DNA from: a virus | Lineage: Duplodnaviria; Caudoviricetes | Direction: 5' to 3' (one strand) | IMG/VR virus record: IMGVR_UViG_3300025000_000132 | Location: 1 to 54,244 of that record | Length of the DNA stretch: 54,244 nucleotides | Shown here: positions 2,111 through 23,994 of the stretch, in pieces | How the letters are laid out: each line of letters begins with the position of its first letter | How positions within the stretch are numbered: position 1 is the stretch's first letter | Program-made: the position numbers and the translations under genes | The notes under the pieces: generated by a model | Told to the model about the DNA's origin: nothing | Seen by the model: the letters and a program-made list of their open reading frames with translations, nothing else | Databases searched by the model: none

Positions 2111-2890
2111 CAATTTGATACCTAAAACATGCAGGCCCGAAGACCTAAAAACCAAAGACCTGCATGTTTTGAGTAGTGAATTGTTACAAAGGATGTAACA
2201 GGAGTATACATCTGTAGTAACATTCTGATACATAAAAAGTAACAAAACTATACTGCCGCTAGGAGGTCAAACACTAGCGAGGGAGCAGAATTGAGTTAGG
2301 AAAGTGCGGATCGGGCCACGTCTGAGATGATTTTTATCTGAAAAAATTTTGGTGTTTTACTGAAAAAATGTAAACCAAAATAAATCTTACCACTAAATGT
2401 TACAGGAAAAAGGAGAGAAAAGCCGGAGGAGATGGAGCAGGAAAAACGCGATTTCCGCAGGTTTTAGTGTAACATTTAGTGGTAAGAATTTGATTTGCAG
2501 GAGGTCAAATATGGAAAAATCAGGCGAAAACAGCGTTTTTCTGTTGCATAGTTTACAAAAAGAAGGTATTTTCTCCACCACATTGTGGCAGAGCCAAGTT
2601 CCAGCCAAGTGAAGAAAATCGAATAAAATCGTACCCCTTATATTATACTTATTAAATAATATATATATATATAGTAAATAAATAGATAAACACTGCCTAC
2701 GCAAGCGCAAACTTACCACTTTATGTTACATTTGCCTGACAGTGGCAGCAACCGCAACCCCGTACCAATGTAACATAAAGTGGCAAAAAAACATTAAGTC
2801 AGAGTATGATTTTCTTTTTTAACAATGATTTTTCTAGTCTTCCCACCTATCTACTGGGAACCACTACAAAAATAAAAAAATCATACATTT
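2111..2890. other. AT-rich non-coding region with several perfect inverted repeats, candidate replication origin
   Basis: IRs 2124-2135/2159-2170 (12 bp), 2385-2404/2468-2487 (20 bp), 2716-2732/2767-2783 (17 bp); AT tract about 2640-2690. Confidence 0.55.
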
Positions 2891-2904
2891 CAAAAGTAAA
2901 CCGC

Positions 2905-2934
2905 TTGACAATTGCCTCTAAACCAGTATATTAT
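2905..2934 (+). promoter_or_regulatory. Sigma70-like promoter
   Basis: TTGACA 2905-2910 and TATATT/TATTAT at 2927-2934; AAGGAGG RBS follows. Confidence 0.7.
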
Positions 2935-2956
2935 TGATACATAAGGAGGAAAAACC

Positions 2957-3349
2957 ATGGAACCGCAAGAATTGAAGCAAATAAGAGAAGGAATCGGCTG
3001 GACAATAAAACACGCCGCCGCGCAATTCCATCGCCCTGTCACCATCTGGCGTAATTATGAATCAGGCCGCACCGCAATACCTTGGGCCGTAGAGGAGTTT
3101 ATGGACATGAAAGCATCTATTGACCTGCCAAAGATTAAACTTGAACCCCGCGCAACTCCCGCGCACCTGACGGCCTTCCGCCAAGCCTTCCACCTGACCC
3201 AGGAAAAAGCCTCCGCCCTTCTTGGTGTCTCCCGGATCACCTGGAACCGCTGGGAGCGTAACCAGACCGCGATCCCGAAACATATGCTTCACACTCTGCG
3301 GGGCATGGTCGCGCAACTCAAATCCGAACAACAGGAGCCCAAACCATGA
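2957..3349 (+). CDS. Tandem XRE-family HTH regulator
   Basis: Two HTH units: LKQIREGIGWTIKHAA..WRNYESGRTAIP and LTAFRQAFHLTQEKAS..WNRWERNQTAIP. Confidence 0.8.
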   Translation: MEPQELKQIREGIGWTIKHAAAQFHRPVTIWRNYESGRTAIPWAVEEFMDMKASIDLPKIKLEPRATPAHLTAFRQAFHLTQEKASALLGVSRITWNRWERNQTAIPKHMLHTLRGMVAQLKSEQQEPKP

Positions 3350-3787
3350 ACATCATCGACACCAGAGACCTTTACAAGAGACAGTGCGAACTTCAAAGCG
3401 AGCTGGAAAGCCTCCAGGATGCCGTCAGCGACGCGCAAGAGGATTATGAAGCTGAGTAACGGCCCCGACGCCCAAGGATTCAGCTACGAGCACCAGGAGG
3501 CAGAGAAAGCCCTCTCCGACTGGCAATCCGAATATCAGGAAGAACTCGACGAACTCAACGCCCTTGAGTCCGAAGTCGGTAGGGAGTGGATGCACGGCGA
3601 GTCACTGATACCGGCTGACGGCTTTGCCGACTACGCCCGAGACCTGGCGGAAGACTTGCACGGCAACGCCATAAGGGACGCAGCATGGCCTTTCGACTAT
3701 ATCGACTGGGAAGCCGCCGTTGACGACCTGGAAAGCGATTACTCTACCTGTGAATACCAGGGCAAAACTTACCTGTTCAGAAGCTAA
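3346..3787 (+). CDS. Acidic ArdA-like (DNA-mimic antirestriction-like) protein, split by a frameshift
   Basis: RBS-led 37-aa ORF 3346-3459 continues in the +1 frame into a very acidic ORF ending YIDWEAAVDDLESDY..YLFRS. Confidence 0.5.
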
Positions 3788-3815
3788 CTCTTAAAAATCG
3801 CACAGGAGAAAAATC

Positions 3816-3974
3816 ATGAACACCGACGACCTTAAAGCATTGGTAGATGAGATAGCCGCAGACGCACCGGAAAACTTCGTAATTGTGGACGGCAACGGGA
3901 AAGAGATAAATGCTTTCTATATCTCCTACGCCACTGGTGCAATCGTTATTGAACACGACCCTGAAGACGCTTGA
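3816..3974 (+). CDS. Small acidic hypothetical protein (52 aa, not in ORF track)
   Basis: AGGAG RBS, MNTDDLKALVDEIA.. Confidence 0.6.
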   Translation: MNTDDLKALVDEIAADAPENFVIVDGNGKEINAFYISYATGAIVIEHDPEDA

Positions 3975-4056
3975 GCCGCCCGGCTCCTGGGGAGGGACAC
4001 GCGCCCTCCTCGGCGGCGAGGCAGCACAGACAAAAATTAAACAGGAGGGTAAAACC

Positions 4057-4224
4057 ATGACACACGAAGAAATTGAGAACAGACTTAATGAGGTATTCGC
4101 CAGCTCACCTTGGAACGAGGACAGGAACTATCCACTTGAGGACTGGATTTATGAGGTACGCAACGGCGACACCCGGCAAGGCTACCGAGGCTGGCTGTAT
4201 AATCGCTACGCTAACGAGGACTGA
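4057..4224 (+). CDS. Small hypothetical protein
   Basis: AGGAGG RBS before ATG 4057. Confidence 0.6.
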   Translation: MTHEEIENRLNEVFASSPWNEDRNYPLEDWIYEVRNGDTRQGYRGWLYNRYANED

Positions 4225-4227
4225 TCC

Positions 4228-4638
4228 ATGCCCAAACCCTCAACAGTAGCAGACATATTCGAGCAGCTAAGGACGCACGGCACCGTGCCGTGGCAGGATG
4301 AGGATAAACCAGAGGAGGAAAAAGATATGACCTACACCGACGCAGACGTTGACAAGTTACTGGACGCACTCGAAGCAAAGCAAGCCCCTCATCAGCAAGC
4401 GAAGCTCCAGCCATACACGGTCCTGATGATCACACCTGACTACCTGTCCAGCGCTTACGGGCACGACTCATATTGTGCCTGGGTAGAAGCTGAGAACGTC
4501 GAGCAGGCGCAACTGAGAGGCCAGGAGGATGCTGTTAAGGAACTCACCGACCCCGACGACACGGACCCGAGCCGCCCCGAAGACTTTTTCATCGTCTTTG
4601 TCTGCAACGGTCACGTTGAAGATATTAAAACTTGGTAA
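4228..4638 (+). CDS. Acidic hypothetical protein (alternative start 4327)
   Basis: ORF track; GAGGAGG upstream of ATG 4327. Confidence 0.6.
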   Translation: MPKPSTVADIFEQLRTHGTVPWQDEDKPEEEKDMTYTDADVDKLLDALEAKQAPHQQAKLQPYTVLMITPDYLSSAYGHDSYCAWVEAENVEQAQLRGQEDAVKELTDPDDTDPSRPEDFFIVFVCNGHVEDIKTW

Positions 4639-4648
4639 GGAGGATAAA

Positions 4649-4834
4649 ATGAGCAAATACGTAACATACAAAGTATGGGTTTCTATTGAGCGTTGCGATG
4701 AGGAGGATGACGACTACGGCAACGAAGGCGAGCCGGTAGAACTAGCGGAATGCTCCACACTGGCAGAGGCTGAGGATCTTGTCGAGATTATTTCCGATAA
4801 GTTTGCGTCTCCGTCTGGCTGGATGGAGGGTTGA
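4649..4834 (+). CDS. Small acidic hypothetical protein
   Basis: AAGGAGG RBS before ATG 4649. Confidence 0.65.
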   Translation: MSKYVTYKVWVSIERCDEEDDDYGNEGEPVELAECSTLAEAEDLVEIISDKFASPSGWMEG

Positions 4835-4964
4835 CCTATGAAATCCCTACTCCTCTACGCTGCAGCCGCGTCCCTGATAGCCGCCATGTCCTTCGCTTTC
4901 ATCCGCACCCTGCCGAAGGCCATAGACAAACTCACCCAGCACCAGACCGAGATGAATGTGACTT

Positions 4965-5336
4965 ATGACAACGCCCAGTATTAAGCCAACCCGTGTCATC
5001 CGCCCACCCCGCCGTATCACCCTGCCCTCCGGCCAGAAGACCTACGAGCTTGACTGTGATGACGGCAAGAGCTACACCTCGGGCGACCTGGCGGTCCTCA
5101 TCGGCCTAGCGAGCGGTGCCAGCCTGGTGCAGCGCATGGCCCGGATGGGCTGGGACAGCTCGACCCTCCTCGCCCCTCCTGCCAAAAGAGGGTTCTCCCT
5201 CACCGGCGAGGCGGCTAAAAACGCCGGCAGTGCTGAGTGGGCCGCGCTGTCAGGTAAAGACAGGAGTGCAAACTTATGGAAAATTCCTGCCGCTGGGACG
5301 TTTGAATTAACTTTATCTTGCAGCGGCGACCGATAA
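4965..5336 (+). CDS. Hypothetical protein, possible DNA-binding
   Basis: ORF colinear with neighbours; HTH-like YTSGDLAVLIGL..SLVQRM segment. Confidence 0.5.
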   Translation: MTTPSIKPTRVIRPPRRITLPSGQKTYELDCDDGKSYTSGDLAVLIGLASGASLVQRMARMGWDSSTLLAPPAKRGFSLTGEAAKNAGSAEWAALSGKDRSANLWKIPAAGTFELTLSCSGDR

Positions 5337-5380
5337 ACTGTAAACTGAGTCACATTAACCACTACTTTAAGGAGGTCACC

Positions 5381-5791
5381 ATGAGCACACGTAGCCTGAC
5401 AATTTTCAAAGACAGCGGAAAAGAGATAGCCGTTATGTACAAGCACTACGACGGATATCCAGAGGGGCACGGTAAGGATCTCGCTAAGTTCCTGACAGGC
5501 ATGAAGATCGTAAACGGCATAAGCGGGAAAGAGCCGCCGAAATTCGCCAACGGTATGGGCTGTCTGGCTGCCCAGGTTATTGCTCACTTCAAAACTGAGC
5601 CGGGAGATGTGGCGATATTGCCACCAGGTACCAGGGACTGTTGGGAAGAGTATGTCTACGTTATTTCCGGCGAGACCGGAGACATTGAGCCCACGCTAAC
5701 AGTAGAGGGATATAAAAAACCTGTTTTTGAGGATAAAGTAAGCCAGTTTCCAGCATTCCTGGAGAAACTGCGAGAAGAGGAGGACGAGTAA
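5381..5791 (+). CDS. Conserved phage hypothetical protein (YxHxDGYP family)
   Basis: AAGGAGG RBS; MSTRSL..MYKHYDGYPEGHG motif. Confidence 0.75.
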   Translation: MSTRSLTIFKDSGKEIAVMYKHYDGYPEGHGKDLAKFLTGMKIVNGISGKEPPKFANGMGCLAAQVIAHFKTEPGDVAILPPGTRDCWEEYVYVISGETGDIEPTLTVEGYKKPVFEDKVSQFPAFLEKLREEEDE

Positions 5792-6116: not shown

Positions 6117-6304
6117 CCCCCGAACAGATCAAATTCATTCGCACCACCCTCGGGCGGACCCAGCAGGACATGGCCAAGATCCTCGGGGTCTCCGTCAGTG
6201 TCTGGCAACTCTGGGAGTCGGGTGCTGGCGGACCGAAGCCGGAGAACATGACCAAACTTCTGAAGCTCCACCACCACGTGGTGGGGCGGGAGGGGAGGGG
6301 ATGA
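6113..6304 (+). CDS. XRE-family HTH protein
   Basis: MTPEQIKFIRTTLGRTQQDMAKILGVSVSVWQLWESG. Confidence 0.85.
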   Translation: MTPEQIKFIRTTLGRTQQDMAKILGVSVSVWQLWESGAGGPKPENMTKLLKLHHHVVGREGRG

Positions 6305-9300
6305 TCAAAGTAGTCCTTGATTGGGAAACCGCCTACGGCAAGCACCCAGCGACGCAGGAGAATATCACCCTATCAAAGATGACAACGGAAGAGTATGTCC
6401 GTCATCCTCTCTTCAAAGTCCACGGCTTGGGGGTCAAAATAGAGCGTGAGCGAGCGTTTTATATCTACAAACGCGACGACCTCCTGCACTTCCTGAAGAC
6501 TCACCCCTGGCAGGAATCGTTCGTCGTCTGCCATCACACTCACTTTGATGGTGCCATACTCTCCTGGCGGGCAGGGATCAAACCGGCGTTCTGGGGCTGC
6601 ACCCTGAGCATGGCCCGCGCCCTCTACCCGCACGAGTCAGTAAGCCTAGCCAACATCGCCCGCCTGCTGCATCTCGGTGAGAAAGGGCATGAGCTGGTCA
6701 ACTTCATCAATCTCTGGGATCTGGCCGACGAGCAGCAACGCATACTCGGCGGCTACTGCTGCAACGACGTGGAGATGACCTCCGACGCCTTTGATGCGAT
6801 GAAGCGAAACTTTCCACCGTCAGAGCTGCGGTTGATCGATCTGACCATCCGCCTATTCACCGAGCCGGTGTTGCAGGTGGAGCGAGGCATTCTGATTGAG
6901 GAGTATAAACGTGAGCGCAGGAGCAAGCGGGCGTTGCTGAAGAAGTGCGCGACAGACAAGTCCGTGCTCGCTTCCAACGACCAGTTTGCAGCCCTGCTGC
7001 TGACCCTTGGCGTGGACCCACCGAAAAAACTCAGCCCTTCGAAAGTCAAGGACGGCAGGGTGGACCCGGACAACGCCGGGGAGCCGCCGCTTGGGATCTT
7101 GCCTTCCTTCAAAACTGCAGGGCTGCCGGTCGAGGACCGGGTGCGGATGAAAGAGGAGAAAAACTCCTACCCTTGGGCCTACGCCTTTGGCAAGAGCGAC
7201 GAGGAGTTTAAGATGCTCCTTGACCACCCGGACGAGCAGGTCCAGGCTGTAGTTGAGGCCCGCATGGGGATCAAATCGACGATCAAGGAAACCCGGAGTA
7301 AGCGGTTCTTCAAGATTGGCAAGCGCGGTGCGTTCCCGGTGTATCATAATTACTATGGAGCGAGGACCGGGCGAGACAGCGGCGGGGATAAACAGAACAC
7401 GACCAACCTGAACCGGGTCGATCCACGTGATCCGACCTCTGGCGCCCTGCGCCGCTCTCTCAATGCTCCTGAGAAGCACGTTCTCGTCGTGCGCGACCTT
7501 GGGCAGATCGAGGCCCGAAAGCTCTCTTACACTGCTGGTCAGGAAGACCTGTTGGATCTGTTCCGCGCCGGCGGCGACCCTTACAACCGGCAAGCGACAA
7601 AGATCTTCGGCTATGAAGTCAACCGCAAGCTTGATGAGTTCTGGCTTGAGGGGCTTGCTGGCAAGGCCTCTGTTCTCGGTTGCTTAGGTGGTGACACAAA
7701 GGTATTGACTAACCGAGGCTGGGTCGATATAGTATCCGTAAGAGCAACGGATACAGTATGGGACGGTGAAAGGTTCGTCACTCATGCTGGTGTCGTACCA
7801 AAAGGAGAACGAGAATGTCTGAAGGCTTTCGGAGTAACCATAACACCGGACCACGAAATCTTGACGGAAAGTTCGTGGCAGGAGTGGCAGTCGGTCCTTA
7901 CAAGCAGTTCCCTTTTCCAGTCGGCTTTGAGCAAGGCGAGCTTACAATCGTCGAATGGAGAGCAAAAAGAACAAACAACAGACCCGACGGGTGGCACCCG
8001 TGGTGCAGATGCTCTTGCGGCTGGGAGGGTTTTATATTACGGGATAATTTTCGCAGAGGGCTTTCAACGCGCTGCAACAACTGTGCAAAAAAAGCTACCG
8101 GAGTTTTTAAGAAAAACTACTTTGGCTACGCTTCCATTGTTGAGGACTCATACCACAGAGAGCGACTACTTAATAGAATATCTGCGTGCGTTCAAAGATG
8201 CCATAACCCGCGCAATAAACAGTATGATAACTACGGTGGCAGAGGAATTAAGGTGTACACACCTTGGCTTGAAGATAGGAAAGAATTTCTTGCTTACTTG
8301 TGTACTTTGCCCGACTGGGATGTTGCTCACTATGAACTCGATAGAGAAGACAATGACAAAGGGTACGAGCCGGGAAATCTTCGATTTGTACCATCACGCA
8401 AGAATGCAAGCAACAAAGGTTCCCTCGCCAAGTTACGAAAGCAGTACGCCCTTCTTGAAGTTGAAAACGCAGACTTACGACATCGCCTTCGCCGGGCCGA
8501 GGAACAGGTTCGCAATCTTAACAGACAAAGGTCCTTTGTTGGTGCATAATTGTGGGTACGGAATGGGTTGGTCGAAATTCCAGGAGAGCCTGCGGGTCGG
8601 GTTTATGGGGATGCCTTCTATAATCTTCGGAGCTAAGGAATCAGAAAAACTTGGTGCTGACATCGATACGTTTTGCCACCAGCGAAGCTACAAGCCCGGT
8701 TACGCCTTCCTGCGAGACGAAGCACTGGCGTTGAAACCGCTCAATGTTAACGAGGAAGCCCACCTCTGGCATTGCGCGGCAGTGAAGCAGATAGTGGATA
8801 AGTACCGGCAGAGCAACAAAGCGATTGTGGACTTCTGGGGTGAGGCACAGCGAGCGCTCGACGCAATAGTGCGGGGCGAGACCATTCCGGTAGGCAAACG
8901 TAACCTCGTCACTACCTGCCCCGAAGGGTTTCTTCTCCCTAACGGTATGAAAATCAGGTACTATAAACTGCAACGCAATGACAGCGGTGAGTTTCGCTAC
9001 CTCTCCAATAGGCGCAAGAACGAATGGTCGTACCTGTACGGCGGAAAGGCCGTTGAAAATATTATTCAGGCGCTGGCCCGTATCGTCCTTACTGACCAGA
9101 TGCTGGAGATCAACCGCTGGTTGAAACTGCAGCGGCAACGCGATGCTGGTAAGATATACTCAGTAGTGACCTCGACCTACGACGAAGTGGTATGCTGCGT
9201 CCCGTTCTACCGCGCCGACGACTGTCTGCAAATGATGAAGGAAGTCATGGCTACGGCGCCGGCATGGTGCCCGGACCTGCCGCTGAAGTCATCCGGTGGA

Positions 9301-9333
9301 TATGCGGTGAGCTACGGGGACTGTGAAAAGTAA
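6301..9333 (+). CDS. polA: Family A DNA polymerase with 3'-5' exonuclease, intein-containing
   Basis: Exo motifs DWET, HTHFD, YCCND; TGR motif; motif A DLGQIEAR; motif B K-ASVLG/CGYG split by intein; ENIIQ; motif C YDE. Likely start is ATG 6301, not 5983. Confidence 0.92.
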   Translation: MIKVVLDWETAYGKHPATQENITLSKMTTEEYVRHPLFKVHGLGVKIERERAFYIYKRDDLLHFLKTHPWQESFVVCHHTHFDGAILSWRAGIKPAFWGCTLSMARALYPHESVSLANIARLLHLGEKGHELVNFINLWDLADEQQRILGGYCCNDVEMTSDAFDAMKRNFPPSELRLIDLTIRLFTEPVLQVERGILIEEYKRERRSKRALLKKCATDKSVLASNDQFAALLLTLGVDPPKKLSPSKVKDGRVDPDNAGEPPLGILPSFKTAGLPVEDRVRMKEEKNSYPWAYAFGKSDEEFKMLLDHPDEQVQAVVEARMGIKSTIKETRSKRFFKIGKRGAFPVYHNYYGARTGRDSGGDKQNTTNLNRVDPRDPTSGALRRSLNAPEKHVLVVRDLGQIEARKLSYTAGQEDLLDLFRAGGDPYNRQATKIFGYEVNRKLDEFWLEGLAGKASVLGCLGGDTKVLTNRGWVDIVSVRATDTVWDGERFVTHAGVVPKGERECLKAFGVTITPDHEILTESSWQEWQSVLTSSSLFQSALSKASLQSSNGEQKEQTTDPTGGTRGADALAAGRVLYYGIIFAEGFQRAATTVQKKLPEFLRKTTLATLPLLRTHTTESDYLIEYLRAFKDAITRAINSMITTVAEELRCTHLGLKIGKNFLLTCVLCPTGMLLTMNSIEKTMTKGTSREIFDLYHHARMQATKVPSPSYESSTPFLKLKTQTYDIAFAGPRNRFAILTDKGPLLVHNCGYGMGWSKFQESLRVGFMGMPSIIFGAKESEKLGADIDTFCHQRSYKPGYAFLRDEALALKPLNVNEEAHLWHCAAVKQIVDKYRQSNKAIVDFWGEAQRALDAIVRGETIPVGKRNLVTTCPEGFLLPNGMKIRYYKLQRNDSGEFRYLSNRRKNEWSYLYGGKAVENIIQALARIVLTDQMLEINRWLKLQRQRDAGKIYSVVTSTYDEVVCCVPFYRADDCLQMMKEVMATAPAWCPDLPLKSSGGYAVSYGDCEK
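7681..8550 (+). mobile_element. Intein in PolA motif B (290 aa)
   Basis: Block A CLGGDTKVLT, block B TPDH, block F TYDI, block G LLVHN followed by Cys; removal restores KASVLG-CGYG. Confidence 0.93.
7815..8549 (+). CDS. HNH-type homing endonuclease nested out of frame within the PolA intein
   Basis: AAAGGAGA at 7801-7808 before ATG 7815; CRCSCG, RCHNP..YGGRGIKV, LDREDNDKGYEPGNLRF..N motifs. Confidence 0.85.
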   Translation: MSEGFRSNHNTGPRNLDGKFVAGVAVGPYKQFPFPVGFEQGELTIVEWRAKRTNNRPDGWHPWCRCSCGWEGFILRDNFRRGLSTRCNNCAKKATGVFKKNYFGYASIVEDSYHRERLLNRISACVQRCHNPRNKQYDNYGGRGIKVYTPWLEDRKEFLAYLCTLPDWDVAHYELDREDNDKGYEPGNLRFVPSRKNASNKGSLAKLRKQYALLEVENADLRHRLRRAEEQVRNLNRQRSFVGA

Positions 9334-22260: not shown

Positions 22261-23994
22261 ATGCGCATAATCAAACCAAGCGTTGAATATTTTGGAGCAG
22301 TACCGACAGAATATAATGCTGCACTTAAGTTCATCGAGATGGCAGGTAGGACCTGCTACCGCTCAGAGGACAAGATCACTGAAGATAGTGCCGAGGGGTT
22401 CGTCCGGAAACTGATCAAGGCTGGACATCTGGCTATGGTTGAACACTCGAATTTTGTGGTGCGCCACCGAGACCACGACAACGATGCCATGGTAAAAGCG
22501 ATGATCGCTGCCGGCAAATTCCTCACTGTACGCCGAGACTCGGATTACTTGTATGTAGGTGGCAACCTTACTGCTTGGTACCAGAGAGAAATGGGCATGG
22601 ACGAAACCTTGTTTGAACCGTTCCTTCGGCAGTACGACGTACTATTTGAGGTAGGAGACGAGTTTGACACAGCATTCAATGCTGCCGTCGAGCCTAGTTT
22701 TGGATGGACCATCTGCCCCCACGACGAAATCCCCAAGGAACTCCATCGTTACTCAGCAAAATTCATCTGTGATCGTGGTGTCAGCCATGAACTGGTGCGG
22801 CATAGGCCATGCTCTTTTGCTCAGGAAAGTACGAGGTATGTATCGTCTATAAATACTGAGGTAACCGCGGGTACACAGGAAGACGTAGTGTCACTGTACG
22901 AAGCAGGCATGTCCATGCGGCAAGTGTCCGAAAAATCCCTCGGCCTATTTACAGAATGGGACGTATACAAAATTCTCGTAGCCCATGATGTCGATAGAAG
23001 ACCGCTAGGTAATACTGGTCCAGTGGCGCATGACTTTTTCAATGTAATAGACTCAGTAGAAAAGTCGTATCTTCTTGGAGTGATACAGGCTGATGGAAGT
23101 ATCAGGGCAACAGACTCCCCCCAAATATCCATAACTCAGCATAAAGAGTATGCATGGTATCTGCACAGGATGGTTACCCAGTTTCTTCGCCCCTCTGCCA
23201 TGTGCAGCGCAGACAAAAATTGTAACCAAATTACAGTGACCTCCCCACAACTGAAAGACGATCTTTGCCGGGTAGGTATAATACCAAACAAGTCTTACGA
23301 CCAAACAGAGGAAGATATATCCAAATTGTGGGAAGCGGTACCGCCCGGCTTACTGCCGAGTTTTATCAGAGGATTCTTGGACGGGGATGGAGGAGTAAGA
23401 TTTTTCAAGCAAAAGAACAAAGGAGCTACCGACTCCTGCAATATAAATTGGAGCGGAAACCTTTTTCTTCTGCAAAGAATACAGCAATGGATCTTCGACA
23501 ATTTTTCCTATAATGCGCCGCTGTCTCCGGACGCAGTCAGCAAGAATATGTATCGGTTGCGAGTTACTTCGCCGACAGTAGGGAGGCAGCTTGTGACCCT
23601 TTTGCTTGAAGGGTTTACCTACCCATATGGTCACCCAGAGAAGACAGCACGAATGATGGAAGGCATAGGATTGTACGATTTTCCTGTCAATGTTTTTGGT
23701 GATGAAAAATTCATAATTGCGCAACCGTCTTGGTTATTTGAAGAAGGCCCGAGAGCACTGTGGACTTTTCTGAAAGCTATGGACCAGTCTGAGAGATCGT
23801 ATGAGTACATGCGTAGGAATGGGCTCTCCCCCCAACAAGCCCGAGCCGTCCTGCCTAATGCCCTGAAGACCGAGATCGTAGTCACGGCCGATGCGGCTGA
23901 GTGGGCGCATATCAGGAAACTGCGAACAGCGAAATCAGCCCATCCGGATATGCAGCGAATAATGAATATGATGCCTTGGGAGGAGTTTTTATGA
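22261..23994 (+). CDS. thyX: Flavin-dependent thymidylate synthase with an in-frame LAGLIDADG insertion
   Basis: AGRTCY..GH...EH, RGVSHELVRHRPCSFAQESTRY, ARAVLPN..T, LR..AHPDM. Confidence 0.9.
   Translation: MRIIKPSVEYFGAVPTEYNAALKFIEMAGRTCYRSEDKITEDSAEGFVRKLIKAGHLAMVEHSNFVVRHRDHDNDAMVKAMIAAGKFLTVRRDSDYLYVGGNLTAWYQREMGMDETLFEPFLRQYDVLFEVGDEFDTAFNAAVEPSFGWTICPHDEIPKELHRYSAKFICDRGVSHELVRHRPCSFAQESTRYVSSINTEVTAGTQEDVVSLYEAGMSMRQVSEKSLGLFTEWDVYKILVAHDVDRRPLGNTGPVAHDFFNVIDSVEKSYLLGVIQADGSIRATDSPQISITQHKEYAWYLHRMVTQFLRPSAMCSADKNCNQITVTSPQLKDDLCRVGIIPNKSYDQTEEDISKLWEAVPPGLLPSFIRGFLDGDGGVRFFKQKNKGATDSCNINWSGNLFLLQRIQQWIFDNFSYNAPLSPDAVSKNMYRLRVTSPTVGRQLVTLLLEGFTYPYGHPEKTARMMEGIGLYDFPVNVFGDEKFIIAQPSWLFEEGPRALWTFLKAMDQSERSYEYMRRNGLSPQQARAVLPNALKTEIVVTADAAEWAHIRKLRTAKSAHPDMQRIMNMMPWEEFL
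22843..23685 (+). mobile_element. Two-motif LAGLIDADG homing endonuclease inserted in thyX (boundaries approximate)
   Basis: YLLGVIQADG (23068-23097), FIRGFLDGDG (23362-23391), GIIPNKS, N-terminal HTH-like segment; no Hint motifs. Confidence 0.82.

What the first reader, a model, noticed from the sequence alone, without database searches (positions are those of the whole stretch)
7681..8550. Dual-coding intein: homing endonuclease in a separate reading frame with its own RBS
Seen: the PolA intein has intact splicing blocks (CLGGDT, TPDH, TYDI, VHN/C), but its in-frame middle of about 200 aa has no nuclease motifs and reads like a Thr/Ser/Leu-rich shadow frame. A second frame (7815-8549) encodes a 244-aa protein with clear HNH-type motifs, preceded by AAAGGAGA at 7801-7808. 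Its TAA stop (8547-8549) is built from the intein's terminal His-Asn codons (CAT AAT), and its start overlaps block B. Both frames stay open over 735 nt. Known: intein endonucleases are normally in frame. Inference: the nuclease is translated separately while the intein splices the shadow peptide out of the polymerase. I recall out-of-frame intein endonucleases being reported in actinophages, so the concept may not be wholly new; check whether a PolA motif B example is known.
Basis: partly seen in the sequence, partly recalled or inferred. Interest (0 to 1): 0.9.

Follow-up and report, generated by a model that had tools for sequence, protein, structure and literature searches.

The report
Polymerase intein hiding an out-of-frame endonuclease gene
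A self-splicing protein insert (intein) in this phage's DNA polymerase gene carries a second, separately read gene for a likely mobility nuclease written over the same DNA in a shifted reading frame; the layout is real and under selection, but this kind of intein was first described in 2025.

Summary
The PolA-type gene has a 290-codon class-1 intein (7681-8550) in motif B. A 244-codon ORF (7815-8549) runs through it in the +2 frame, behind AAAGGAGA. Its TAA stop is made from the intein's last His-Asn codons.

The dual coding is selected, not chance. In 82 of 84 related loci the polymerase frame stays open across the nested gene; the other two are cut by contig ends. Synonymous reshuffling of the window's nested codons leaves that frame open in only 0.02% of trials. 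In the centre, changes fall on the nested gene's third codon positions (788 against 290 and 190). There dN/dS is about 0.11 in the nested frame and 1.4 in the polymerase frame. In the models the in-frame ends form a confident mini-intein fold around a roughly 155-residue disordered loop. The nested protein folds confidently.

The nine closest polymerases at this site lack the intein, which fits homing.

The "HNH" label is only partly supported. PHROGs families match, but Pfam, NCBIfam and PDB do not. An invariant Asp-Arg sits where I recall HNH_3-type enzymes having their His.

Out-of-frame intein endonucleases were reported in 2025-2026 preprints, in other host genes. This scan has already noted the same PolA element on other DNA (61 notes). 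It is a new member of a known kind.

The parts
6301..7680 (+). N-extein of the family A DNA polymerase. The probable start is ATG 6301. It ends ...GKASVLG inside motif B.
   Evidence: Pfam DNA_pol_A E 7.1e-11 on the whole precursor; translation. Intein-free relatives are 67-97% identical over the last 260 residues.
7681..8550 (+). Class-1 intein of 290 codons: Cys1 ... His289-Asn290.
   Evidence: Landmarks. C1, T55, H58, D267 and N290 are invariant in 66 aligned inteins. The profile hits the Mtu RecA mini-intein at E 1e-4. The model matches mini-inteins in the PDB, best 6frg at E 9.7e-4, prob 1.00.
7681..7944 (+). N-terminal splicing half of the Hint fold (intein residues 1-88, with blocks A and B). 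Its last 130 nt are also read by the nested gene's poorly conserved N-terminus.
   Evidence: pLDDT 97-98 for residues 1-80 and 85 for 81-90. The polymerase frame is more conserved than the nested frame. Changes fall on polymerase codon position 3: 60/40/155.
7705..7733 (+). Promoter-like site (TTGACT-17-TATAGT) 82 nt before the nested start. A lead only.
   Evidence: 10 of 12 matches, but 2 sites were found in the region against 0.9 +/- 1.0 in shuffles, so it is not above chance.
7801..7808 (+). Shine-Dalgarno-like AAAGGAGA, 6 nt before ATG 7815.
   Evidence: letters. One search scores AAGGAG at spacing 7, one of three six-letter matches (with L012 and L013) among 70 loci.
7815..8549 (+). Nested gene in the +2 frame (244 aa plus TAA). 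It has a zinc-ribbon beta domain, a helical and beta-beta-alpha domain with the invariant D176-R177...N188...N197 motif, and a long C-terminal helix. It is a putative homing endonuclease.
   Evidence: ORF. PHROGs phrog_374 E 1.1e-28 and phrog_3377 E 1.1e-20, both named HNH endonuclease. Model pLDDT 86.1. dN/dS about 0.11. Invariant residues.
7954..8421 (+). Shadow stretch of the intein frame (intein residues 92-247). It is kept free of stops but is not conserved as protein.
   Evidence: pLDDT below 50 with no secondary structure. Polymerase-frame dN/dS is about 1.4. Changes concentrate on polymerase codon position 2, which is nested position 3. Thr+Ser+Leu+Ala make up 38%, against 27% in the exteins.
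8452..8550 (+). C-terminal splicing part (intein residues 258-290, blocks F and G). It is fully overlapped by the nested gene's C-terminal helix and stop codon.
   Evidence: pLDDT 97. Polymerase frame conservation is 0.53-0.79 against 0.39-0.53. Changes at polymerase codon positions 1/2/3 are 26/22/100.
8551..9333 (+). C-extein, starting with the +1 Cys (8551-8553) of CGYGMGW. Seven of nine intein-free relatives have Asn at that position.

Best explanation
This is a mobile class-1 intein in motif B of a phage family A DNA polymerase, and its homing gene is a separate cistron written over the intein's middle in the +2 frame. Ribosomes reading polA pass through the whole insert. Intein residues 1-88 and 258-290 fold into a mini-intein (Hint) domain around a disordered loop of about 155 residues. 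That loop has no protein function beyond being free of stops. The domain splices itself out and leaves a polymerase with Cys where intein-free alleles mostly have Asn. Independently, ribosomes start at ATG 7815 behind AAAGGAGA and make a 244-aa protein with a zinc ribbon, a beta-beta-alpha nuclease-like domain and a C-terminal helix. This protein is inferred to cut intein-free polA alleles of co-infecting relatives, so that repair copies the intein and its nested gene into them. Shown here: the dual coding, the selection regime of each frame, the fold predictions, and the sporadic distribution. Inferred: independent initiation, splicing, DNA cleavage, and origin by a free-standing endonuclease gene invading a mini-intein.
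For: (1) Architecture. (2) Conservation of the layout: in 82 of 84 related loci the polymerase frame is open across the nested gene at the same offset. Those loci are 4 GenBank phages and the best 80 of 344 IMG/VR relatives. The other 2 are cut by contig ends, and the third frame is closed in all. (3) Of the 85 sources, 81 were kept because they have Cys at the first intein column. They end in His-Asn (Ser-Asn in L053) followed by Cys, or by Ser in L047 and L066. (4) Frame switch in conservation: the polymerase frame wins at intein residues 1-70 and 271-290, ties at 261-270 (0.53 each), and the nested frame wins at 81-90 and 101-260, with 71-80 marginal (0.38 against 0.44) and 91-100 a tie. 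(5) In 14 independent pairs, central changes at nested codon positions 1/2/3 are 290/190/788. In the splicing ends they fall on polymerase position 3 instead: 60/40/155 and 26/22/100. (6) Central dN/dS has a median of 0.11 in the nested frame (12 finite values of 14 pairs) and 1.42 in the polymerase frame. (7) Stop avoidance: P(open) is 0.0002 for the window, with a median of 0.002 over 68 loci. (8) Models: nested protein pLDDT 86.1; intein ends about 97 with residues 92-247 below 50. Mini-intein matches in the PDB have prob 1.00. (9) Mobility: the 9 closest polymerases at this site (C-extein 54-92% identical) lack the intein. Intein-bearing loci have exteins only 30-44% identical but nested proteins 51-56% identical. 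Intein GC is 47.5% against 57.8 and 54.4% in the exteins, and it has no GC3 bias against 0.73 in the N-extein. Contigs of the same groundwater runs join 7646 to 8554 without the intein. (10) Start signals: 58 of 70 unique loci have a start codon behind a Shine-Dalgarno core of 4 or more letters. That is 85 of 279 start-region NTG codons against 51 of 371 internal ones.
Against: There is no expression, proteomic or biochemical evidence. The nuclease assignment is weak. 0 of 64 nested proteins hit a Pfam HNH family, NCBIfam gives none, the profile finds no solved nuclease, and Foldseek finds 0 PDB matches at E <= 0.001. The position I align (from recall) with the His-His of HNH_3-type enzymes is an invariant Asp-Arg here. 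It is Asp-Arg in 257 of 264 motif matches in the 268 family proteins held. In some relatives the module occurs two or three times per protein and the zinc ribbon four or five times, which is more usual for DNA-binding modules. The window lacks the start codon at intein +92 that most relatives have and uses a different one at +134. A start codon at +92 is expected in three of four cases anyway, because it overlaps a conserved Trp codon. The enrichment of Shine-Dalgarno cores is only about twofold. The intein's own sequence matches to curated intein models are marginal: TIGR01445 E 0.078, and Pfam Hint families in 3 of 66 members.
Confidence: 0.72

Rival explanations
1. The nested protein is real and selected but is not a nuclease. 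It would be a sequence-specific DNA-binding protein, a degenerate HNH-like module, and mobility, if any, would depend on another enzyme.
For: Asp-Arg is invariant where I recall HNH_3 enzymes having their His. There is no Pfam, NCBIfam or PDB nuclease match. Modules are repeated in some relatives. Some structural neighbours in BFVD are named 'DNA-binding domain protein' or 'AP2/ERF domain-containing protein'.
Against: Asp176, Asn188 and Asn197 are invariant on a predicted beta-beta-alpha unit. The PHROGs families are named HNH endonuclease. The gene sits where inteins carry their homing enzyme and shows the sporadic, horizontally moving distribution expected of a homing element. His114 is nearly invariant and could act as the base; this was not testable here.
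Confidence: 0.15
2. In this window the nested gene is a recently silenced relic. The intein persists as a mini-intein with a junk loop and no longer homes.
For: Two of 70 unique relatives (L038, L074) have a truncated nested frame (143 and 170 aa) while the polymerase frame stays open, so decay does happen. The window has lost the common +92 start codon.
Against: The window's copy is full length and keeps every family-invariant residue. It has one of the three longest Shine-Dalgarno matches of the set. The unameliorated GC points to a recent arrival.
Confidence: 0.08
3. The nested protein is made by programmed ribosomal frameshifting from the polymerase frame, as a fusion to the N-extein and intein N-half, not by internal initiation.
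For: In several relatives the nested frame is open well upstream of the intein (for example L059, L068 and L078). Internal initiation inside a translated ORF is usually inefficient (general knowledge).
Against: In the window the nested frame is open only from 7770, 45 nt before the ATG, and I saw no slippery heptamer in that stretch by eye. Start codons with Shine-Dalgarno cores are enriched at the start region. The nested protein's first 30 residues or so are poorly conserved and of low confidence, as expected for a true N-terminus.
Confidence: 0.04
4. Assembly or sequencing artefact: a canonical in-frame HNH intein with two compensating indel errors.
For: The window comes from a metagenome assembly.
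Against: The same offset is seen in 84 independent loci, including isolated Salmonella, E. coli and Pseudomonas phages. No in-frame version was found: 0 of 40 long family members carry a polymerase domain. An independent contig of the same runs covers 7269-8592 with no differences, although these runs may be the source of the window.
Confidence: 0.01

Closest known systems
Non-canonical actinobacteriophage inteins with an endonuclease VII-like homing endonuclease in 'reading frame 3' (Gosselin, Arsenault and Gogarten, bioRxiv 10.1101/2025.01.02.630785; abstract, sections 8 and 15 and passages read)
   Same: A full intein with conserved splicing blocks. The endonuclease is encoded on the same strand in another frame, between the splicing blocks. 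The in-frame middle gives no recognisable structure. Free-standing relatives of the endonuclease exist. The proposed origin is invasion of an intein by a free-standing endonuclease gene.
   Different: Host genes differ. [quoted passage not shown] The endonuclease family differs: endonuclease VII-like there, a family without a Pfam model (Asp-Arg...Asn...Asn) here. Their hosts are actinobacteria; the relatives here include phages of Salmonella, E. coli, Pseudomonas and Vibrio. I could not see their supplementary tables.
Cyanobacterial dnaX intein with an out-of-frame (+2 ORF) homing endonuclease (Phillips, DeSimone and Gogarten, bioRxiv 10.64898/2026.09.14.751524; abstract and passages read). 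It cites Gorbalenya 1998 on non-canonical inteins, which I did not read.
   Same: A +2-frame endonuclease ORF inside an intein, purifying selection on the endonuclease frame, a sporadic distribution with intein-free alleles alongside, and secondary invasion proposed as the origin.
   Different: That case is cellular (cyanobacterial), in the Pol III gamma/tau subunit, with a LAGLIDADG-type endonuclease. Here the host is a phage PolA and the protein is HNH-like.
ShiLan domain: a hidden out-of-frame HNH endonuclease in phage DNA methylases (Arsenault et al., Genes 2025, PMC11855218; abstract and passages read)
   Same: An out-of-frame endonuclease gene lies within an insertion that keeps the host frame open. 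Its stop codon lies in the last bases of the insertion.
   Different: No splicing domain was detectable there, so the insert is thought to stay in the protein as a loop. Here the insert has a complete, confidently modelled Hint domain.
Fractured genes: split inteins flanking a free-standing endonuclease gene (Dassa et al. 2009, PMC2677866; search listing and abstract seen)
   Same: An endonuclease gene sits between the intein's N and C splicing parts. A close polymerase relative of this window (L094/L095) has exactly this split form, with a nested-family gene overlapping both halves.
   Different: In the window the intein frame is unbroken, so splicing is in cis and the two genes share 735 nt.
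Canonical inteins with an in-frame HNH or LAGLIDADG domain (general knowledge; the preprint above counts 712 of its inteins as canonical LAGLIDADG)
   Same: Class-1 splicing landmarks, insertion in a conserved active-site motif of a replication enzyme, and homing-type distribution.
   Different: In those, the endonuclease is a domain of the same polypeptide.

Membership tests
Class-1 intein (Hint-domain protein-splicing element) | Cys, Ser or Thr as first residue | tested here: met
   Cys1 at 7681-7683. It is invariant in 66 aligned inteins, but those were kept because they have Cys at that column.
Class-1 intein (Hint-domain protein-splicing element) | Block B Thr-x-x-His | tested here: met
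   TPDH at residues 55-58. T55 and H58 are invariant in 66 sequences. The profile aligns this block to the Mtu RecA mini-intein at E 1e-4.
Class-1 intein (Hint-domain protein-splicing element) | Terminal His-Asn followed by Cys, Ser or Thr in the C-extein | tested here: met
   VHN|C at 8542-8553. N290 is invariant and H289 is at least 90% conserved. The +1 residue is Cys in 79 of 81 loci and Ser in 2.
Class-1 intein (Hint-domain protein-splicing element) | Hint fold | tested here: met
   Residues 1-88 and 258-290 are modelled at pLDDT about 97. Foldseek matches the Ssp DnaB, DnaX, gp41-1 and Mtu RecA mini-inteins at prob 1.00, with a best E of 9.7e-4. Curated sequence models are only marginal: TIGR01445 E 0.078, and Pfam Hint families in 3 of 66 members.
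Class-1 intein (Hint-domain protein-splicing element) | Protein splicing activity | not testable with these tools
   This needs expression of the precursor.
[quoted passage not shown] | A complete endonuclease-type ORF on the same strand, in another frame, between the splicing blocks, with the host frame kept open | tested here: met
[quoted passage not shown] | The in-frame middle has no recognisable fold, and the alternate-frame product folds | tested here: met
   Residues 92-247 have pLDDT below 50. The nested protein has pLDDT 86.1.
[quoted passage not shown] | Purifying selection on the endonuclease frame | tested here: met
   Central changes 290/190/788 by nested codon position. dN/dS is 0.11 against 1.42.
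[quoted passage not shown] | Sporadic, horizontally moving distribution | tested here: met
   All nine of the closest polymerases at this site lack the intein. No formal tree test was run.
HNH (His-Me finger) endonuclease | Match to a curated HNH model | tested here: not met
   Pfam: none for the window protein at E <= 1, and 0 of 64 relatives at E <= 0.01. NCBIfam: none. Only PHROGs families named HNH endonuclease match.
HNH (His-Me finger) endonuclease | Catalytic His at the end of the first beta strand | tested here: not met
   Asp176-Arg177 are invariant in 64 sequences. The pair is Asp-Arg in 257 of 264 motif matches across the 268 family proteins held. The correspondence to the HNH_3 His-His is my own alignment to a consensus recalled from memory.
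HNH (His-Me finger) endonuclease | Beta-beta-alpha unit with conserved Asn residues | tested here: inconclusive
   The model has strands 173-177 and 189-193 followed by a helix from 194, and N188 and N197 are invariant. However, Foldseek finds no PDB His-Me finger match at E <= 0.001.
HNH (His-Me finger) endonuclease | Metal-dependent DNA cleavage | not testable with these tools
   This needs purified protein.
Family A DNA polymerase (host gene) | Match to the DNA_pol_A model and a motif B Lys...Tyr-Gly around the insertion point | tested here: met
   PF00476 E 7.1e-11, above its cut-off. GKASVLG|CGYG was read from the translation. The motif B consensus itself is recalled.

The most novel reading that the evidence does not exclude
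The nested gene may be the first functional handle on a very large, Pfam-less protein superfamily: 116,647 cluster representatives at E <= 0.001. Its beta-beta-alpha core carries Asp-Arg where I recall HNH enzymes carrying their catalytic His. If the PolA-intein members really home, this would be a His-less catalytic variant of the His-Me finger, or a nickase. The PolA intein plus nested gene would then be a stable, co-adapted two-frame unit that has moved between divergent phage polymerases and between two insertion points 12 nt apart in motif B.
Probability: 0.3. Interest if true: 0.6.

Novelty: new member of a known kind. Interest (0 to 1): 0.42.

Why it matters
It shows that the out-of-frame endonuclease design for inteins is not an actinophage or cyanobacterial curiosity. 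The same design occurs in a large family of phage PolA inteins: 344 relatives in IMG/VR and about 170 GenBank phage records with near-full matches. These include easily grown Salmonella and E. coli phages, in which splicing, internal initiation and homing can be tested directly.

It has a practical side too. Gene callers mostly annotate only the polymerase precursor, so the nested gene goes unannotated, and the "intein" looks as if it has no endonuclease.

For this window, the intein looks like a recent arrival in a lineage whose closest relatives are intein-free, and intein-free alleles are present in the same samples.

The nested protein's family has no curated model and an unusual active-site motif, so an assay would be informative beyond inteins.

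Tried and rejected
- **DNA search.** A blastn search of the region against GenBank phages found no match.
- **IMG/VR search with the single nested protein.** This found no relative. It worked only with an alignment.
- **Curated models.** Pfam and NCBIfam gave no family for either frame of the intein.
- **Solved structures.** The nested-protein profile found only zinc-ribbon look-alikes among solved structures. Foldseek against the PDB found nothing at E <= 0.001.
- **ESM Atlas.** Hits were all below 0.9 and are leads only.
- **Phage K.** I guessed from memory that the phage K relative might be an intron-encoded endonuclease. The annotation shows a free-standing hypothetical protein (K_ORF27), so I dropped that idea.
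- **Internal promoter.** One good-looking site lies at 7705-7733, but the count is not above shuffles.
- **Expression.** No RNA holder is listed for this stretch.
- **In-frame fused forms.** 0 of 40 long family members carry a polymerase or intein Pfam domain. I did not run the 'longer' mode of the search for homologous proteins.
- **Rows dropped.** Of 85 sources, L019 and L072 are cut by contig ends. L028 and L034 have a nested match split in two pieces, and my extraction window missed their intein start. This leaves 81 inteins, of which 70 are unique. L001-L004 and L060 were left out of alignments A2 and A3. L001-L004 come from a tool whose loci the fold tool refuses, and L060 appears to duplicate L001.
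- **Not done.** I built no phylogenetic tree and ran no topology test.
- **Literature.** Seven searches found no paper describing the PolA motif B case. Supplemental Table 1 of the 2025 preprint could bear on this.
Full report
**What is there.** The window is a phage-like contig that groundwater metagenome runs hold. A family A DNA polymerase gene (Pfam DNA_pol_A, E 7.1e-11) runs from about 6301 to 9333. Inside it, at 7681-8550, lies a 290-codon insert with the landmarks of a class-1 intein:
- Cys1 (CLGGDT);
- TPDH at residues 55-58;
- TYDI near the end;
- a terminal His-Asn followed by Cys.

On the same strand, in the +2 frame, a 244-codon ORF runs from ATG 7815 to TAA 8547-8549. AAAGGAGA sits at 7801-7808. 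The TAA is made from the last base of the His codon (CAT) and the first two bases of the Asn codon (AAT). Every coordinate in the finding is right.

**The overlap is not chance.** I kept the nested protein sequence and permuted its own synonymous codons. The polymerase frame then stayed free of stops in 0.02% of 5000 trials, with 5.2 stops expected and none seen. The third frame has 23 stops.

**Related loci.** A tblastn search of the nested protein against GenBank phages gave 668 records, 170 of them covering at least 80% of the query. Nearly every row with at least 84% cover that I was shown lies under a gene annotated as DNA polymerase, or as an intein-containing DNA polymerase. These rows are H1-H30 and H31-H45, and the two sets overlap. 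The exceptions are one unannotated record and Sodalis phage SO-1, which is annotated as two genes. The phages include Jerseyvirus, Dhillonvirus, Pseudomonas phage MR14 and EBPR siphovirus 2. More distant matches (25-30% identity) are free-standing genes, for example ORF27 of phage K.

An alignment-based scan of IMG/VR found 344 relatives, and the best 80 were kept. I examined these 80 together with four GenBank loci:
- In 82 of the 84 loci the frame two bases behind the nested frame is open across the whole match, as part of ORFs of 498-1280 codons.
- The other two loci are cut by contig ends.
- The third frame is always closed.
- 81 sources (80 loci and the window) could be aligned over the full intein and have Cys at the first intein column. 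They end in His-Asn, once Ser-Asn, followed by Cys (79) or Ser (2).

**Which frame is selected where.** Column conservation across 70 unique inteins switches between frames:
- The polymerase frame is the better conserved at intein residues 1-70 and 271-290; residues 261-270 tie at 0.53.
- The nested frame is the better conserved at residues 81-90 and 101-260; residues 91-100 tie and 71-80 are marginal.

In 14 phylogenetically independent pairs the substitution pattern switches in the same way:

| Region | Frame used for codon positions | Changes at positions 1/2/3 |
|---|---|---|
| Central region | nested frame | 290/190/788 |
| N-terminal splicing part | polymerase frame | 60/40/155 |
| C-terminal splicing part | polymerase frame | 26/22/100 |

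Nested position 3 is polymerase position 2, where every change alters the in-frame residue.

Nei-Gojobori estimates for the centre give a median dN/dS of 0.11 in the nested frame (range 0.06-0.29; 12 finite values of 14 pairs). In the polymerase frame the median is 1.42 (range 1.14-2.40). So the nested gene evolves as a protein-coding gene. The intein frame in the middle is constrained only to stay open: over 68 loci the median chance of that under synonymous permutation is 0.002.

**Structure predictions.** With 66 in-frame inteins as the alignment, residues 1-88 and 258-290 are modelled at pLDDT about 97. Residues 92-247 are below 50 and have no secondary structure. Foldseek matches the confident part to solved mini-inteins (Ssp DnaB, DnaX, gp41-1, Mtu RecA) at prob 1.00, with a best E of 9.7e-4. 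The sequence profile also hits the Mtu RecA mini-intein at E 1e-4 over block B.

With 64 nested proteins as the alignment, the 244-aa product is modelled at mean pLDDT 86.1, with 155 residues at 90 or above. It has:
- a beta domain carrying a CxC...CxxC zinc ribbon;
- a helical region;
- two strands (173-177 and 189-193) followed by a long helix.

Each frame's critical parts therefore overlap tolerant parts of the other. The nested protein's first 30 residues or so have low confidence and low conservation, and they lie over intein block B. Its C-terminal helix lies over blocks F and G.

**Is it an HNH endonuclease?** Only partly shown.

For the label:
- PHROGs families annotated as HNH endonuclease match strongly (phrog_374, E 1.1e-28).
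- BFVD structural neighbours include proteins named putative HNH homing endonuclease. They also include an uncharacterised 247-aa protein of Salmonella phage LPSE1, which looks like the same nested gene annotated on its own.

Against the label:
- Pfam gives no HNH family for the window protein or for any of 64 relatives, and NCBIfam gives none.
- The profile finds no solved nuclease, and Foldseek finds no PDB match at E <= 0.001.
- The family is very large, with 116,647 cluster representatives at E <= 0.001 and 549 at E <= 1e-30. Forty long members carry no informative Pfam domain.
- The motif on the beta-beta-alpha unit is Asp176-Arg177 ... Asn188 ... Asn197. The pair is Asp-Arg in 257 of 264 motif matches in the 268 family proteins held.
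- By my own alignment to a recalled HNH_3 consensus, Asp-Arg sits where those enzymes have His-His.

I therefore do not file the protein as an HNH enzyme. I infer a homing nuclease from its place in the intein and from its evolutionary behaviour.

**Mobility.** Eleven IMG/VR loci carry polymerases 67-97% identical to the window's N-extein. Nine of them are continuous across motif B and have no intein there. Seven read ...LG-Asn-GYG and two read ...LG-Cys-G. Their C-exteins are 54-92% identical to the window's.

The intein-bearing loci show the opposite pattern. Their C-exteins are only 30-44% identical to the window's, but their nested proteins are 51-56% identical.

The intein's composition also stands out. 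Its GC is 47.5%, against 57.8% and 54.4% for the exteins. It lacks the N-extein's GC3 bias of 0.73.

In the metagenome runs that hold the window, and that may be its source, a contig joins 7646 to 8554 with 37 other letters between. Read by eye, those letters encode the intein-free motif B with Asn. Its word depth is 39.6, against 17.6 for the intein-bearing contig in run X1, and 11.3 against 5.3-6.9 in run X3. Intein-free and intein-bearing alleles of related phages thus coexist there. Together these results fit a recent horizontal arrival by homing or an ectopic jump. They do not prove it.

**Start of the nested gene.** Most relatives have ATG, GTG or TTG at intein position +92, overlapping a conserved Trp codon. 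That is expected in three of four cases by codon structure alone. The window has GTT there and instead uses ATG at +134, behind one of the three longest Shine-Dalgarno matches of the set. Across 70 unique loci, 58 have at least one start codon behind a core of four or more letters. That is 85 of 279 start-region candidates against 51 of 371 internal controls. This is modest support for internal initiation. No RNA run holds the stretch, so expression is untested.

**What is known.** Out-of-frame and antisense endonuclease genes inside inteins are in print in three places:
- The 2025 actinophage survey (bioRxiv 10.1101/2025.01.02.630785; sections 8 and 15 read) describes an endonuclease VII-like gene in 'frame 3', and antisense LAGLIDADG and VSR-like genes.
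- A 2026 preprint (10.64898/2026.09.14.751524; abstract and passages read) describes a +2-frame endonuclease in the cyanobacterial dnaX intein, with purifying selection. It cites Gorbalenya 1998.
- PMC11855218 describes a hidden out-of-frame HNH in phage methylases that has no splicing domain.

None of the seven searches I ran found a description of the PolA motif B case. One Jerseyvirus paper mentions inteins only in passing (PMC8425127; passages read).

This scan has already noted the same element on other DNA: 61 notes in at least 54 genomes. I treated those notes as leads and re-derived the evidence here.

**Verdict.** This is a real, selected dual-coding intein. It is a new member of a kind first described in 2025-2026, in a different host gene and with a different, uncharacterised endonuclease-like family. 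It is interesting mainly because the family is large and has cultured members in which every inferred step can be tested.

Noticed in passing
L094 and L095 (IMG/VR), L095:2395-5591: A polymerase about 80% identical to the window's has no intein in motif B. It is instead broken at another site (after ...YYGARTGRD). ORF 2395-3882 ends in an intein N-fragment and ORF 4425-5591 starts with an intein C-fragment (...VHN|SGGD). A 264-aa gene of the same nested family (3662-4456) overlaps both ends in other frames. This looks like a split-intein 'fractured gene'.
   Followed up: partly
window 7660-7680 / 8551-8565 and loci L002-L004, L029, L030, L032, L042-L046, L053: Related inteins with the same nested gene sit at two insertion points 12 nt (four codons) apart in motif B: GKxxxLG|CGYG (the window and most loci) and GKx|CxLGLG(Y/F).
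   Followed up: partly
window 8551-8553: The +1 Cys that the intein needs replaces the Asn found at that motif B position in seven of nine intein-free close relatives. The spliced polymerase would therefore carry a substitution in motif B. This probably explains part of another first-stage note on this gene (e1-6326360).
   Followed up: partly
L038:2349-3224 and L074:2307-3149: Two relatives have the nested frame cut short (143 and 170 codons open) while the polymerase frame stays open. They look like decaying copies of the nested gene inside still-intact inteins.
   Followed up: no
L089:2033-2383: An intein-free close relative of the window's phage has a match to the nested protein (32% identity over residues 126-236) about 1 kb upstream of the matched polymerase stretch. 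It may be a free-standing member of the family.
   Followed up: no
GenBank hits H60, H61, H74, H75: Weaker matches to the nested protein lie under genes annotated as DNA polymerase (APSE-7, Pseudomonas phage MR5) and as dUTPase (two Staphylococcus phages). These may be further nested or intervening copies in other genes.
   Followed up: no
window 22843-23685: Another first-stage note on this window reports a LAGLIDADG endonuclease in frame within ThyX without intein landmarks. I did not look at it, but this phage seems to carry more than one homing-type element.
   Followed up: no
L028 and L034, nested match 2501-3433: The nested-gene match is split into two pieces, with about 285 extra bases between them. 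This may be an insertion within the nested gene or the intein.
   Followed up: no
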